Shown in pieces: positions 996 through 13,521 of a stretch of DNA of 13,710 nt (within the stretch, counting starts at the first letter, position 1; every line of letters starts with the position of its first letter). A program made the position numbers and the translations under genes. This stretch comes from a virus (taxonomy: Duplodnaviria > Heunggongvirae > Uroviricota > Caudoviricetes): the IMG/VR virus record IMGVR_UViG_2693429700_000003, positions 1 to 13,710 of that record. The stretch is one strand, 5' to 3'. The notes beneath the pieces were generated by a model. The model saw nothing but the letters and a program-made list of their open reading frames with translations. It had not been told where the DNA came from and did not search any database.

Positions 996-1053
996 AAAAA
1001 GGGCGGCAGAGCAGTCACGGAGTAAAACTGATACCGCCAAACGTCACCAGAAA
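996..1053 (-). ncRNA. dicF: DicF small regulatory RNA (antisense regulator of ftsZ mRNA) with its intrinsic terminator hairpin and U-tail
   Basis: Minus-strand sequence TTTCTGGTGACGTTTGGCGGTATCAGTTTTACTCCGTGACTGCTCTGCCGCCCTTTTT matches my recollection of DicF essentially base for base; GGCGG...CCGCC stem followed by a T-run. Confidence 0.85.
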
Positions 1054-6895: not shown

Positions 6896-7159
6896 ATGGC
6901 AACTTTGACAAAAAAAGAACGGGCATGGTTAAACGAATTACAGGAAGTTCTTGATCGCTGTCCATCACCGAAAAAAATTGGCTTTTACACCATTGGCGAT
7001 AAAAGCATTTACCTGTATGACCTACGCCGCATGGATGAAATCATGGAGGCTCTTGATAATCGTTCGTCGATGGATTGGTGTGTTGCTGTTCATGATATGA
7101 ATGCAGGGTTTGATGAAAAGATTTTGTTCCCCTCATCAGTTGAAAGCACTGCGGGTTAA
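6896..7159 (+). CDS. Hypothetical protein, 87 aa
   Basis: ATG 6896 with AAGGAAAA upstream (internal start of track ORF 6806..7159). Confidence 0.6.
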   Translation: MATLTKKERAWLNELQEVLDRCPSPKKIGFYTIGDKSIYLYDLRRMDEIMEALDNRSSMDWCVAVHDMNAGFDEKILFPSSVESTAG

Positions 7160-8154: not shown

Positions 8155-8259
8155 ATGTCGGATGATATATCACTGGCAATGGAAGGTGCGCTGGCTGTTG
8201 TTGCTGTTGTGGGCGTTTACTGCCTGGTTGTGTTTTTGATGGATCGACTAGGGAACTGA
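8155..8259 (+). CDS. Tiny hydrophobic peptide, 34 aa (MSDDISLAMEGALAVVAVVGVYCLVVFLMDRLGN)
   Basis: Not in the ORF track; AAAGGAGGG 4 nt upstream of ATG; predicted single transmembrane helix. Confidence 0.45.
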   Translation: MSDDISLAMEGALAVVAVVGVYCLVVFLMDRLGN

Positions 8260-8289: not shown

Positions 8290-8448
8290 GGTAAAAACGG
8301 TTTGCGGGAAAAGGAGAGTTAAGTAGAATTGCTGCGGGTGCTTGAGGCTATCTGTCTCAGGCATGAACACCAAAAGGCAGATAGAGAAAAGCCCCAGTTA
8401 ACATTACGCGTCCGGCAAGACGCTTAACATTAATCTGAGGCCATATCT

Positions 8449-8655
8449 ATGCTCTACACACGTAGGTTAGCCTCTTACGGACCGAAAGGTCAAGGAGAAG
8501 CAGGCTATGAAGCAGCAAAAGGCGATGTTAATCGCCCTGATCGTCATCTGTTTAACCGTCATAGTGACGGCACTGGTAACGAGGAAAGACCTCTGCGAGG
8601 TACGAATCCGAACCGGCCAGACGGAGGTCGCTGTCTTCACAGCTTACGAACCTGA
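8449..8655 (+). CDS. mok-like overlapping reading frame (translation-coupling frame of a hok locus), 68 aa
   Basis: Track ORF; starts 58 nt upstream of hok and overlaps it out of frame, as mok does in hok/sok loci. Confidence 0.5.
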   Translation: MLYTRRLASYGPKGQGEAGYEAAKGDVNRPDRHLFNRHSDGTGNEERPLRGTNPNRPDGGRCLHSLRT

Positions 8656-8662
8656 GGAGTAA
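8507..8662 (+). CDS. hokD: Hok-family type I toxin (HokD/RelF-like), 51 aa
   Basis: Manual translation MKQQKAMLIALIVICLTVIVTALVTRKDLCEVRIRTGQTEVAVFTAYEPEE matches the Hok/Gef family as I recall it (hydrophobic helix then TRKxLCEVR motif); not in the ORF track (too short). Confidence 0.85.
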   Translation: MKQQKAMLIALIVICLTVIVTALVTRKDLCEVRIRTGQTEVAVFTAYEPEE

Positions 8663-8731
8663 GAGACCCGGCGAGGGAGAAATCCCTCGCCACCTCTGAT
8701 GTGGCAGGCATTCTCAACGCACCCGCACTTA

Positions 8732-8760
8732 ACCCGCTTCGGCGGGTTTTTGTTTTTATT
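8732..8760 (+). terminator. Rho-independent terminator at the 3' end of the hok mRNA
   Basis: ACCCGC-TTCG-GCGGGT hairpin followed by TTTTTGTTTTTATTTT. Confidence 0.75.
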
Positions 8761-8878
8761 TTCAACGCATTTGAAGTTCTGGACGGTGCCGGAATAGAAT
8801 CAAAAATACTTAAGTAGCGCGCAGGGATAAGAGGGATGGTCCCTTAAAGGGGAGAGCTAATTATCCGGAAGGATTCTG

Positions 8879-9130
8879 ATGATGAACATCGAAGAACTGC
8901 GTAAAATTTTTTGTGAAGATGGCCTCTATGCTGTGTGCGTTGAAAATGGAAATATTGTTAGTCATTACCGCATTGTGTGTTTGCAAAAAAATGGGGCTGC
9001 GTTAATTAATTTTGTGGATGCCCGAGTGACGGACGGATTTATCTTGCGCGACGGTGAGTTTGTCACTTCATTACAGGTATTGAAAGAGATCGGAATAAAA
9101 GCTGGCTTTTCTGCTTTTTCAGAAGAATAA
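8879..9130 (+). CDS. Hypothetical protein, 83 aa (same size and position as rem next to hokD in Qin; sequence identity unverified)
   Basis: Track ORF; GGAAGGA upstream. Confidence 0.6.
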   Translation: MMNIEELRKIFCEDGLYAVCVENGNIVSHYRIVCLQKNGAALINFVDARVTDGFILRDGEFVTSLQVLKEIGIKAGFSAFSEE

Positions 9131-13211: not shown

Positions 13212-13287
13212 GGCCCTTTAGCTCAGTGGTGAGAGCGAGCGACTCATAATCGCCAGGTCGCTGGTTCAAATCCAGCAAGGGCCACCA
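13212..13287 (+). tRNA. tRNA with CAU anticodon, ileX/ileZ-like (tRNA-Ile2 type read after lysidine modification; Met not excluded)
   Basis: Manual cloverleaf: acceptor GGCCCTT/AAGGGCC, D-arm TAGCTCAGTGGTGAGAGC, anticodon loop CTCATAA, T-loop GGTTCAAATCC, 3' ACCA; close to my recollection of E. coli ileX. Confidence 0.8.
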
Positions 13288-13288
13288 A

Positions 13289-13365
13289 CCGCCACTAGCT
13301 CATCAGGAAAGAGCGTCAACCCTTTAAGTTGAGTGTGCGAGGTTCGAGTCCCCGGTGGCGGTCCA
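13289..13365 (+). tRNA. tRNA of uncertain identity: anticodon loop CCUUUAA (UUU at positions 34-36, Lys-like, but with non-canonical C33)
   Basis: Manual cloverleaf: acceptor CCGCCAC/GTGGCGG (perfect 7 bp), D-stem GCTC/GAGC, anticodon stem TCAAC/GTTGA, T-arm with TTCGAGT loop and one mismatch, 3' TCCA; starts 1 nt after the preceding tRNA. Confidence 0.55.
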
Positions 13366-13367
13366 GT

Positions 13368-13443
<76 letters not shown>

Positions 13444-13446
13444 TAT

Positions 13447-13521
<75 letters not shown>

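What the first reader, a model, noticed from the sequence alone, without database searches (positions are those of the whole stretch)
8330..8760. Stand-alone hok/mok type I toxin locus without relBE
A Hok-family toxin gene (8507-8662) has an overlapping mok-like frame (8449-8655) and a strong terminator (8732-8760). On the minus strand a candidate Sok promoter (-35 TTGACC at plus 8488-8493, -10 TAACCT about 18 nt downstream) would produce an antisense RNA over the mok start. An imperfect long hairpin (CTATCTG 8348-8354 / CAGATAG 8378-8384) lies in the predicted 5' leader, where hok mRNAs have fold-back regulatory structure. In K-12 the homologous hokD is the third gene of relBEF; here no relB/relE is present.
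Basis: partly seen in the sequence, partly recalled or inferred. Interest (0 to 1): 0.5.

Follow-up and report, generated by a model that had tools for sequence, protein, structure and literature searches.

The report
Prophage hok/mok/sok toxin-antitoxin cassette
This is an intact copy of the well-known hok/sok "host-killing" toxin and antisense-RNA antidote module, sitting in a lambda-like prophage; it is present in most E. coli genomes and is therefore ordinary.

Summary
Window 8324-8757 is a complete hok/mok/sok type I toxin-antitoxin cassette. It contains a 51-aa Hok toxin identical to K-12 HokD and an overlapping mok leader ORF. The hok mRNA leader scores 109.5 bits on Rfam RF01794. The 5' end (tac) pairs with a 3' element (fbi), and an antisense Sok gene and a terminator complete the unit. 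The cassette lies in the early-right region of a Qin-like lambdoid prophage, and relB/relE are absent.

None of this is new. A full-length cassette occurs in 4018 of 5426 complete E. coli genomes, where it is annotated hokD. It is 92% identical to hokW/mokW/sokW of phage 933W/Sp5, which has been shown experimentally to be a type I TA. The K-12 relE-hokD fusion is the minority state (1165 genomes). It is derived, because homology to K-12 starts only at window 8493.

Two side observations are mildly interesting. A 23-nt patch at 8441-8463, covering the Sok 5' tail and the target-hairpin loop, is 4-5 times more variable than the rest of the cassette. The mok frame relative to hok also differs between near-identical alleles, and this window has the rare R1-like +1 frame.

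The parts
8324..8329 (+). hok mRNA promoter -10 (TAGAAT), 6 nt upstream of the predicted start G8336; left edge of the conserved cassette
   Evidence: Sequence. The hexamer is kept in nearly all of 70 unique alleles, while sequence further upstream differs between loci. No conserved -35 was found (TTGCGG at 8302-8307, 16-nt spacer, in this window). Use as a promoter is inferred.
8336..8757 (+). full-length mok-hok (hok) mRNA, about 420 nt
   Evidence: The 5' end is position 1 of the Rfam RF01794 model and the invariant GGGTGCTTGAGGC. The 3' end is the terminator. MFE -168.3 kcal/mol, z = -7.7. The transcript ends are inferred by homology, not measured.
8336..8346 (+). tac (translational activator) element GGGUGCUUGAG
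   Evidence: Pairs with 8713-8724 in the full-length MFE fold. Pairs with 8389-8395 in the 3'-truncated fold and in the Rfam consensus structure. Invariant in 79 loci.
8348..8384 (+).
   Evidence: Compensatory AT<->GC change at pair 8350/8382 among alleles.
8389..8397 (+). ucb / anti-SD box (AAGCCCCAG): partner of tac in the truncated mRNA, and complementary to the mok SD region CUGAGGC at 8435-8441
   Evidence: Pairs 8336-8343 with 8389-8395 are 70/70 canonical. Role assigned by analogy with R1 (PMC9841398).
8386..8457 (-). Sok antisense RNA (predicted, about 65-72 nt): 15-nt single-stranded 5' tail, long hairpin, then UUUUC
   Evidence: The coordinates of the annotated sokW of 933W map here. 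Fold -28.6 kcal/mol, z = -4.6. Overlaps the first 9 nt of mok, as sokC does with mokC in K-12 and sokW with mokW in 933W. The transcript was not observed here.
8464..8493 (-). Sok promoter: -35 TTGACC (8493-8488), 18-nt spacer, -10 TAACCT (8469-8464)
   Evidence: Sequence. The homologous -10 was mutated experimentally in hokW-sokW and antitoxin function was lost. Not called by the consensus scan.
8437..8474 (+). Sok-target hairpin holding the mok SD (GAGG 8437-8440) and the mok AUG (8449-8451); closing stem GAGGC/GCCUC; hypervariable loop
   Evidence: Rfam consensus structure. Closing pairs 8437-8441 with 8470-8474 are 70/70 canonical. The loop lies within the variable patch 8441-8463.
8449..8655 (+). 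mok leader ORF (68 codons, +1 frame relative to hok, start 58 nt upstream of the hok ATG)
   Evidence: Same 58-nt spacing as R1 (mok A116, hok A174; PMC9841398). The frame differs among alleles.
8480..8491 (+). small GAAA-tetraloop hairpin (GACC GAAA GGUC) just upstream of the hok SD; carries the Sok -35
   Evidence: Other alleles have UGCC GAAA GGCA, so a 4-bp stem is kept through a substitution plus a 1-nt insertion.
8493..8497 (+). hok Shine-Dalgarno (AGGAG); also the first base of homology with K-12 hokD
   Evidence: Sequence. K-12 homology runs from 8493 to 8506 and onward.
8507..8662 (+). hok toxin gene (51 aa, identical to K-12 HokD)
8670..8691 (+). 3' UTR hairpin (GGCGAGGGA GAAA UCCCUCGCC)
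   Evidence: Presumed 3' end-protecting stem of the processed mRNA, by analogy with R1. Inferred.
8713..8724 (+). fbi (fold-back inhibitory) element CUCAACGCACCC, complementary to tac
   Evidence: RNAduplex -19.2 kcal/mol with tac. Paired in the MFE fold. Compensatory changes relative to R1-type hok and hokB.
8731..8757 (+). intrinsic terminator of the hok mRNA; right edge of the conserved cassette
   Evidence: Flanks diverge beyond about 8756.

Best explanation
Window 8324-8757 is an intact hok/mok/sok type I toxin-antitoxin cassette of the hokD/hokW subtype. It is carried as a self-contained module of about 430 bp in the early-right (replication-to-Q) region of a Qin-like lambdoid prophage.

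Most likely mechanism, by homology with R1 hok/sok and Sp5 hokW-sokW:
- A weak constitutive promoter (-10 at 8324-8329) produces a stable mRNA of about 420 nt.
- The 5' end of this mRNA (tac, 8336-8346) is locked to a 3' element (fbi, 8713-8724). The full-length RNA is then neither translated nor bound by Sok.
- Slow 3' trimming removes fbi. tac then pairs with ucb (8389-8395). This frees the mok ribosome-binding site and forms the target hairpin (8437-8474).
- The short-lived antisense Sok RNA (about 8457 to 8386, minus strand) uses its single-stranded 5' tail to bind the hairpin loop. It covers the mok SD and start, and the duplex is degraded by RNase III.
- When Sok synthesis stops, through loss of the prophage, transcription shut-off by an infecting phage, or prophage induction, mok is translated. 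Ribosomes run through the hok start region, and the 51-aa Hok peptide is made and depolarises the inner membrane.

Shown here: every sequence element, their positions, the predicted alternative pairings, family membership and conservation. Inferred: the transcripts themselves, processing, toxicity, and the biological role.
For: Family membership:
- Hok ORF matches Pfam PF01848 at E 1.2e-23. It is identical to K-12 HokD, 47/51 identical to HokW and 42% identical to R1-type Hok.
- The leader matches Rfam RF01794 at 109.5 bits over the full model, ending exactly at the hok AUG. The same model hits R1-type hok, hokB, hokC and hokW in the same register.

RNA structure:
- The full-length fold pairs 8336-8346 with 8713-8724, z = -7.7.
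- The truncated fold forms the tac-stem with 8389-8395.
- tac/fbi complementarity is kept by compensatory changes across the family. Window: GGGUGCUUGAG with CUCAA(C)GCACCC. R1-type: GGCGCUU with AAGCGCC. hokB: GGGUGCCUGAGA with UCUCA(U)GGCACCC.

mok and Sok:
- mok starts 58 nt before hok, as in R1.
- The Sok region maps onto the annotated sokW and folds as a 5' tail plus a terminator hairpin.
- The homologous sokW -10 is needed for antitoxin function, and HokW is toxic (PMC8621323).

Conservation and context:
- The cassette is conserved as a unit with sharp edges, at the -10 on the left and the terminator on the right.
- It occurs in 4018 of 5426 E. coli genomes, annotated hokD.
- Prophage context is shown by Pfam hits to CI/Cro, YdaT, DnaT, P, RusA, Q-like and methylase proteins and by the 96%-identical SLK172 prophage.
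Against: No expression or toxicity data exist for this allele.

The Sok -10 (TAACCT) matches consensus at only 3 of 6 positions with an 18-nt spacer, and the promoter scan did not call it. No conserved -35 precedes the hok promoter.

Chromosomal hokA, hokB and hokC loci tested earlier did not mediate post-segregational killing. This is reported in bioRxiv 10.1101/2025.08.07.668861.

This exact allele is rare. Its combination of the GACC..GGUC hairpin and the +1 mok frame occurs in 2 of 5426 complete genomes and 2 of 79 leader-containing loci. It looks recombinant, so its regulation has not been validated by abundance.

MFE folds only partly reproduce the R1 model of mok-SD sequestration.
Confidence: 0.9

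Rival explanations
1. The cassette is an evolutionary relic that is structurally intact but physiologically silent. It would resemble the chromosomal hok loci of laboratory strains: transcribed at most weakly, and never releasing Hok.
For: Native chromosomal hokA, hokB and hokC loci did not give post-segregational killing or rifampicin activation, as summarised in bioRxiv 10.1101/2025.08.07.668861. The promoter hexamers are weak. The allele is rare and apparently recombinant.
Against: Every regulatory element is intact. The tac, ucb, fbi, SD sequences and the ORF are invariant or nearly so across 79 loci, whereas the flanks are not. That pattern indicates purifying selection on the whole unit. 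The 92%-identical hokW-sokW is active in its native prophage (PMC8621323). A single chromosomal copy of R1 hok with its own promoter is lethal without Sok (PMC9841398).
Confidence: 0.12
2. The cassette is a working hok/sok module, but its role is not prophage addiction. It would be a lysis helper at induction, as proposed for hokW-sokW of Sp5, and/or an abortive-infection defence against other phages, as reported for R1 hok/sok against T4.
For: In Sp5, mitomycin C removes sokW RNA. HokW then appears in a RecA-dependent way, and deleting the locus halves phage release (PMC8621323). Here the cassette is co-directional with the early-right operon, between the replication genes and Q. Induction-driven read-through could therefore flood the locus with sense transcripts and interfere with the convergent Sok promoter; this step is inference. 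T4 exclusion by R1 hok/sok is cited.
Against: In Sp5/933W the cassette sits elsewhere in the phage genome, so position-dependent arguments do not transfer. No data exist for Qin-like prophages. This rival concerns the role only and is compatible with the molecular mechanism given above.
Confidence: 0.4
3. The long mok frame is a chance ORF, and Sok acts directly on hok translation.
For: The Mok peptide has no Pfam match. Its frame and length are not conserved between alleles: 70 aa in frame with hok, 19 aa ending at an ATGA overlap, or 68 aa in the +1 frame.
Against: The ATG at 8449, its GAGG SD, and translation through to at least the hok start are kept in all 79 leader-containing loci in every frame variant. 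Predicted Sok (8386-8457) does not reach the hok SD at 8493-8497. [quoted passage not shown] So it is the act of translating mok that matters, not the peptide.
Confidence: 0.03

Closest known systems
hokW / mokW / sokW of Stx2 phage 933W and Sakai prophage Sp5 (AF125520; Takada et al. 2021, PMC8621323)
   Same: 92.4% nucleotide identity over 405 nt. Hok is 47/51 identical. The tac, ucb, mok SD/ATG, Sok -10 (TAACCT), hok SD and fbi are the same. The setting is a lambdoid prophage. It has been shown experimentally to be a type I TA.
   Different: 933W lacks the window's terminator sequence after fbi, where homology ends at about 8727. mokW is in frame with hokW (57-nt spacing), whereas here the spacing is 58 nt and the frame is +1. 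The Sok -35 and spacer are TTGCCT/17 there and TTGACC/18 here. The Sok-target loop sequence differs. The location within the phage genome differs.
hokD (relF) of E. coli K-12 cryptic prophage Qin, third gene of relBEF
   Same: The Hok protein is identical. The 3' UTR, fbi and terminator are nearly identical, as is the downstream rem-ydfU neighbourhood. The prophage type is the same, with dicB-dicF-dicA/C upstream.
   Different: K-12 homology starts at window 8493. K-12 therefore has no hok promoter, tac, ucb, mok or Sok gene, and relBE occupies that side. The window is the complete form. The K-12 junction is found in 1165 of 5426 genomes, against 4018 with the full cassette.
hok/sok (parB) of plasmid R1, the archetype
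   Same: The order and spacing of all elements are the same. The mRNA 5' end is GGCGCUUGAGGC in R1 and GGGUGCUUGAGGC here. mok begins 58 nt before hok. fbi lies about 380 nt downstream and is complementary to tac through compensatory changes. A small hairpin carrying the Sok -35 lies just before the hok SD. The Rfam RF01794 hit is in the same register.
   Different: Hok is only 42% identical. There is no detectable DNA similarity by blastn. R1 is a plasmid, not a prophage.
Chromosomal hokB/sokB and hokC(gef)/sokC of E. coli K-12
   Same: The family and leader structure are the same, with RF01794 scores of 109.7 and 118.3 bits. Annotated Sok RNAs overlap the first 9-11 nt of mok in the same way.
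   Different: They are at different chromosomal sites outside prophages. hokC is followed by IS186 20 nt after its stop, which separates it from any fbi. mokC is in frame with hokC.

Membership tests
hok/mok/sok type I toxin-antitoxin family | Small hydrophobic Hok/Gef toxin ORF of about 50 aa | tested here: met
   ORF 8507-8662, 51 aa. Pfam PF01848 82.9 bits against a cut-off of 22. Identical to HokD. NCBIfam Hok subfamily 48.5 bits, below its strict cut-off of 73.
hok/mok/sok type I toxin-antitoxin family | Upstream leader ORF (mok) with its own SD, starting about 57-58 nt before hok and read through the hok start region | tested here: met
   ATG at 8449, SD GAGG at 8437-8440, 58 nt before the hok ATG, open to 8655. 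R1 has the same spacing. The ATG and SD are kept in all 79 related loci.
hok/mok/sok type I toxin-antitoxin family | Structured hok mRNA 5' leader (covariance model RF01794) | tested here: met
   109.5 bits against a gathering score of 59, model positions 1-157 of 157, 8336-8509 plus strand.
hok/mok/sok type I toxin-antitoxin family | Long-range complementarity between the mRNA 5' end (tac) and a 3' element (fbi) just before the terminator | tested here: met
   8336-8346 pairs with 8713-8724, -19.2 kcal/mol, and is paired in the MFE fold. Compensatory differences relative to R1-type hok and hokB. Invariant within the hokD subtype, so there is no covariation inside it.
hok/mok/sok type I toxin-antitoxin family | Alternative tac/ucb stem in the 3'-processed mRNA that frees the mok SD | tested here: met
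   The truncated fold (8336-8712) forms 8336-8343 with 8389-8395. The same pairs are in the Rfam consensus and are 70/70 canonical. Processing itself was not tested.
hok/mok/sok type I toxin-antitoxin family | cis-encoded antisense Sok RNA with its promoter inside the 5' part of mok, covering the mok SD and start | tested here: inconclusive
   The hexamers TTGACC-18-TAACCT and a 5'-tail-plus-hairpin-plus-U RNA are present at the positions of the annotated sokW. The homologous -10 is functionally required in hokW-sokW. However, the promoter is weak by consensus and was not called by the scan. No transcript data exist for this sequence.
hok/mok/sok type I toxin-antitoxin family | Hok toxicity, neutralisation by Sok, and killing after loss of Sok synthesis | not testable with these tools
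   This needs cloning and expression. It has been shown for the 92%-identical hokW-sokW (PMC8621323).
relBEF operon (K-12 arrangement of hokD) | relB and relE immediately upstream of hokD, with hokD lacking its own leader | tested here: not met
   No RelB or RelE similarity anywhere in the window; best tblastn E = 2.5. A full hok leader is present instead.

The most novel reading that the evidence does not exclude
The 23-nt patch at 8441-8463 covers the Sok 5' recognition tail, the loop of its target hairpin and the first mok codons. It may be a specificity determinant that is swapped or diversified among otherwise near-identical prophage hok/sok cassettes. Co-resident prophages, of which there is a median of 2 and up to 9 cassette copies per genome, would then carry non-cross-reacting Sok antidotes, and each would remain individually 'addictive'.

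Evidence so far:
- The patch has a mean pairwise difference of 0.30, against 0.067 for the rest of the non-coding cassette and 0.010 for hok. This is the highest of all 23-nt segments.
- Among allele pairs whose backbone differs by 1% or less, the patch is either identical (48%) or at least 20% different (43%).

The alternative is simple lack of constraint in a loop whose complement is encoded automatically on the other strand. The four same-genome pairs available (1 identical, 3 different) do not discriminate between the two.
Probability: 0.3. Interest if true: 0.4.

Novelty: already known. Interest (0 to 1): 0.12.

Why it matters
It matters little as a discovery. The cassette is routinely annotated as hokD in thousands of genomes, its phage orthologue hokW-sokW has been characterised, and its regulatory logic is the textbook R1 hok/sok model.

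Its practical value is as a clean example of the complete, ancestral form of the K-12 'hokD/relF' gene. It shows that in K-12 the relBE module replaced the hok promoter, leader, mok and Sok, up to 14 nt before the hok ATG.

The side observations could be used to ask whether multiple hok/sok copies in one genome are insulated from each other. These are the hypervariable Sok recognition patch and the free variation of the mok frame among near-identical alleles.

Tried and rejected
(1) The consensus promoter scan did not find the Sok promoter or the hok promoter. It did find a plus-strand site at 8424-8453 inside the leader, which I regard as chance. The promoters were therefore assigned by homology only.

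(2) I mapped the Rfam consensus structure onto 70 unique hokD-type alleles to look for covariation. Only three pairs show compensatory changes (8350/8382, 8397/8435, 8400/8431). Two helices are mis-registered for this subtype because of an insertion. tac/fbi is invariant within the subtype, so its covariation support had to come from cross-family comparison.

(3) An exact-pattern scan of GTDB species representatives for this allele's hairpin found one soil MAG contig (L004). It carries DicF and a hok cassette but a different mok region, so it is not the source of the window.

(4) L141 has nearly the same length as the window but is not identical to it.

(5) Testing Sok orthogonality with same-genome cassette pairs yielded only four usable pairs from IMG/VR, which is inconclusive.

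(6) blastn against plasmids did not reach R1 hok/sok. It was retrieved with the Hok protein instead.

(7) A sub-threshold Rfam isrK match at 8671-8752 (26.6 bits against 50) was rejected. It is essentially the 3' hairpin plus the terminator.

(8) I considered that the plus-strand Rfam 'sok' hit meant Sok is on the plus strand. This was rejected. The model ends at the hok AUG and is antisense to the annotated sokC and sokB in K-12.

Full report
**What is there**

The first is 8507-8662 (51 aa, ATG). The second is 8449-8655 (68 aa, ATG, +1 frame relative to the first).

The 51-aa product matches Pfam Hok/Gef (PF01848) at 82.9 bits, E 1.2e-23. It is 100% identical to K-12 HokD, 47/51 identical to HokW of phage 933W and 42% identical to R1-type Hok. 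The 68-aa frame has no family match, as expected for mok.

Rfam gives a full-length hit to RF01794 ('sok') at 8336-8509 on the plus strand: 109.5 bits against a gathering score of 59. A terminator (stem 8731-8748, T-run to 8757) is found by the scan.

**A caveat on the Rfam model**

The RF01794 hit lies on the hok sense strand and ends exactly at the hok AUG. The same is true for R1-type hok (L086), hokB, hokC and hokW. In K-12 the hit is antisense to the annotated sokC and sokB genes. The model therefore describes the hok mRNA leader, which contains the Sok target. It does not describe Sok itself. It is good evidence of family membership but not of an antisense transcript.

**RNA architecture**

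Folding 8336-8756 gives an MFE of -168.3 kcal/mol, z = -7.7 against shuffles. In this fold the first 11 nt (GGGUGCUUGAG) pair with CUCAA(C)GCACCC at 8713-8724. This is the tac/fbi lock of the R1 model.

Removing the last ~45 nt (fold of 8336-8712) makes the 5' end pair with AAGCCCC at 8389-8395 instead. This is the tac/ucb stem, and it is also the Rfam consensus.

Within 79 hokD-type loci both tac and fbi are invariant. Across the family the complementarity is kept by compensatory changes. R1-type hok has GGCGCUU with AAGCGCC. hokB has GGGUGCCUGAGA with UCUCA(U)GGCACCC.

The predicted Sok RNA (8457 to 8386, minus strand) folds as a 15-nt free 5' tail, a long hairpin and UUUUC (-28.6 kcal/mol, z = -4.6). 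It coincides with the annotated sokW of 933W when the coordinates are transferred.

The Sok -10 is weak by consensus (3 of 6), and the scan did not call it. However, the identical hexamer in hokW-sokW was the one mutated (primer YO-421) to abolish antitoxin activity.

The spacing from the mok ATG to the hok ATG is 58 nt. This is the same as in R1, where substitutions T117/G118 hit the mok start codon and G176 hits the hok start codon (PMC9841398).

**Context**

The window is the early-right arm of a Qin-like lambdoid prophage. Its features, in order, are:
- DicF (1001-1052, minus strand)
- a CI-like repressor and a P22-Cro-like protein
- YdaT
- a DnaT-domain replication protein and P
- DUF1627 and DUF551 proteins
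- the hok cassette
- a Rem homologue (93% to K-12 Rem)
- DUF968 (YdfU, 79%)
- RusA
- a Q-like DUF1133 protein
- a DNA methylase
- four tRNAs

This rests, and on the annotation of the 96%-identical SLK172 prophage. The order matches K-12 Qin. No RelB or RelE similarity exists in the window.

**Relation to K-12 hokD**

Aligning the window with K-12 shows near-identity from 8493 through hok, the 3' UTR, the terminator and into rem. Position 8493 is the hok SD, 14 nt before the ATG. There is no similarity upstream, where K-12 has relE. K-12 hokD is thus the truncated derivative, and the window carries the complete cassette.

In 5426 complete E. coli genomes, 4018 hold a place covering at least 80% of the 431-nt cassette. 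Only 1165 hold the K-12 relE-hokD junction. 'Stand-alone' is therefore the rule. RefSeq annotates these loci as hokD, and phage records annotate them as hokW/mokW/sokW, 'host killer protein' and similar. The cassette also occurs on 594 plasmids, mostly non-mobilizable ones of about 90-100 kb.

**Mechanism**

The most likely mechanism is the R1 scheme, as described in PMC9841398 and PMC8621323:
- A stable full-length mRNA is locked by tac/fbi.
- 3' trimming occurs slowly.
- The RNA refolds to tac/ucb.
- The mok TIR is exposed in a target hairpin.
- Unstable Sok captures the target through its 5' tail, and RNase III cleaves the duplex.
- If Sok is lost, mok is translated and Hok translation is coupled to it.

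The sequence elements and predicted pairings are shown here. Transcription, processing, toxicity and the physiological role are inferred.

For the role, three options remain open: prophage maintenance, help with lysis at induction (shown for Sp5) and exclusion of other phages.

The main counter-argument to activity comes from earlier tests of chromosomal hokA, hokB and hokC loci, which were inactive in killing assays. Against that, the whole cassette is conserved as a unit with sharp edges at the -10 and the terminator, while the flanks vary.

**Allele-level observations**

Among 79 leader-containing loci encoding an identical Hok, the distance from the mok ATG to the hok ATG takes three values:
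- 57 nt in 65 loci. mok is in frame with hok, so Mok is a 70-aa N-terminally extended Hok.
- 56 nt in 12 loci. A 19-codon leader ORF ends in an ATGA overlap with the hok start.
- 58 nt in only 2 loci, the window and E. coli ECO2947. This is the +1 frame with a 68-aa product, as in R1.

The window's state results from a 1-nt insertion plus substitutions in the small GAAA hairpin (GACC..GGUC instead of UGCC..GGCA). These keep a 4-bp stem and change the Sok -35 and spacer from TTGCCT/17 to TTGACC/18. The exact 77-nt stretch occurs in 2 of 5426 complete genomes. [quoted passage not shown]

Variability along the cassette is low (0-0.45 bit per column) except for a sharp peak at about 8441-8463 (0.87 bit). 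In that patch the mean pairwise difference is 0.30, against 0.067 for the remaining non-coding cassette and 0.010 for hok. It is the most variable of all 23-nt segments. Among allele pairs with 1% or less backbone divergence, the patch is either identical (48%) or at least 20% different (43%).

The patch is the loop of the target hairpin and the single-stranded 5' tail of Sok. In R1 this region initiates Sok-hok recognition (Thisted et al. 1994, from my own knowledge). Diversification of antidote specificity is a possible reading, and the Sib/Ibs family offers a precedent for discrimination by variable regions (PMC2943612, listed). Lack of constraint is the simpler alternative. Four same-genome pairs (1 identical, 3 different) do not decide between them.

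**Verdict**

The finding is a correct identification of an ordinary, already known element. Interest is low.

Noticed in passing
window 8441-8463: Hypervariable patch inside an otherwise highly conserved cassette. Mean pairwise difference is 0.30, against 0.067 for the backbone and 0.010 for hok, with 18 haplotypes in 79 loci. Among near-identical backbones the patch is bimodal: either identical or at least 20% different. It coincides with the Sok 5' tail, the target-hairpin loop and the first mok codons.
   Followed up: partly
window 8449-8507 and loci L001-L085: The mok frame relative to hok is not conserved among cassettes encoding an identical Hok. It is in frame in 65 loci (57 nt, 70 aa). 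It is a 19-codon ORF ending in an ATGA overlap in 12 loci (56 nt). It is in the +1 frame in 2 loci including this window (58 nt, 68 aa, as in R1).
   Followed up: yes
window 8336-8509 (+); L086, L087, L088, L001: Rfam RF01794, named 'sok antitoxin', matches the hok sense strand (the mRNA leader ending at the hok AUG) in every family member tested. It is antisense to the annotated sokC and sokB of K-12. The family name is misleading about strand.
   Followed up: yes
window 8493; L003 5275-5290: The breakpoint of homology with K-12 relBE-hokD lies 14 nt upstream of the hok ATG. K-12 keeps the hok SD but lacks the promoter, tac, ucb, mok and Sok. The K-12-type junction is present in 1165 of 5426 genomes.
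   Followed up: yes
window 8645-8647: Tyr47 codon UAC followed by G (UACG), in a loop-like context CAGC-UUACGAA-CCUG. A preprint states that hokC, hokD and hokE mRNAs undergo TadA A-to-I editing that recodes this Tyr to Cys, as in hokB. The site is intact here (A8646).
   Followed up: no
window 1001-1052 (-): Full-length DicF sRNA gene, 76.7 bits. In the 96%-identical SLK172 prophage a dicB gene lies just downstream on the minus strand. This matches the division-inhibition operon of Qin-type prophages.
   Followed up: partly
window 13212-13521 (+): Cluster of four tRNA genes after the DNA methylase gene. In the related SLK172 prophage it lies ahead of the lysis genes. The anticodons are CAT (called Met by ARAGORN but annotated tRNA-Ile in SLK172), Lys-TTT, Thr-TGT and Gly-TCC. 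The related ECO2947 prophage has Ile-Arg-Arg instead.
   Followed up: no
window 8155-8259 (+): A 34-aa hydrophobic ORF (MSDDISLAMEGALAVVAVVGVYCLVVFLMDRLGN) just upstream of the cassette. It is annotated as a hypothetical protein in SLK172 and has no Pfam or NCBIfam match. A weak terminator-like site lies inside it at 8210-8226.
   Followed up: no
window 8771-8800 (+) and 8879-9130 (+): Promoter-like site TTGAAG-18-TAGAAT directly after the hok terminator and ahead of a Rem homologue that is 93% identical to K-12 Rem.
   Followed up: no
plasmid hits H73-H95; phage hit H28: hokD-type cassettes occur on 594 plasmids, mostly non-mobilizable and about 90-100 kb. A 96.5%-identical copy is in a record named Actinobacillus phage vB_Apl-pPE4, an unexpected host for an E. 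coli-type cassette.
   Followed up: no
L004 (JAGTSE010000010.1) 1247-1298 and 6959-7127: A contig of a soil MAG labelled 'Proteobacteria bacterium CTSoil_132' carries DicF and a hok cassette of the same subtype. It looks like an Escherichia-type prophage fragment binned into a MAG.
   Followed up: no
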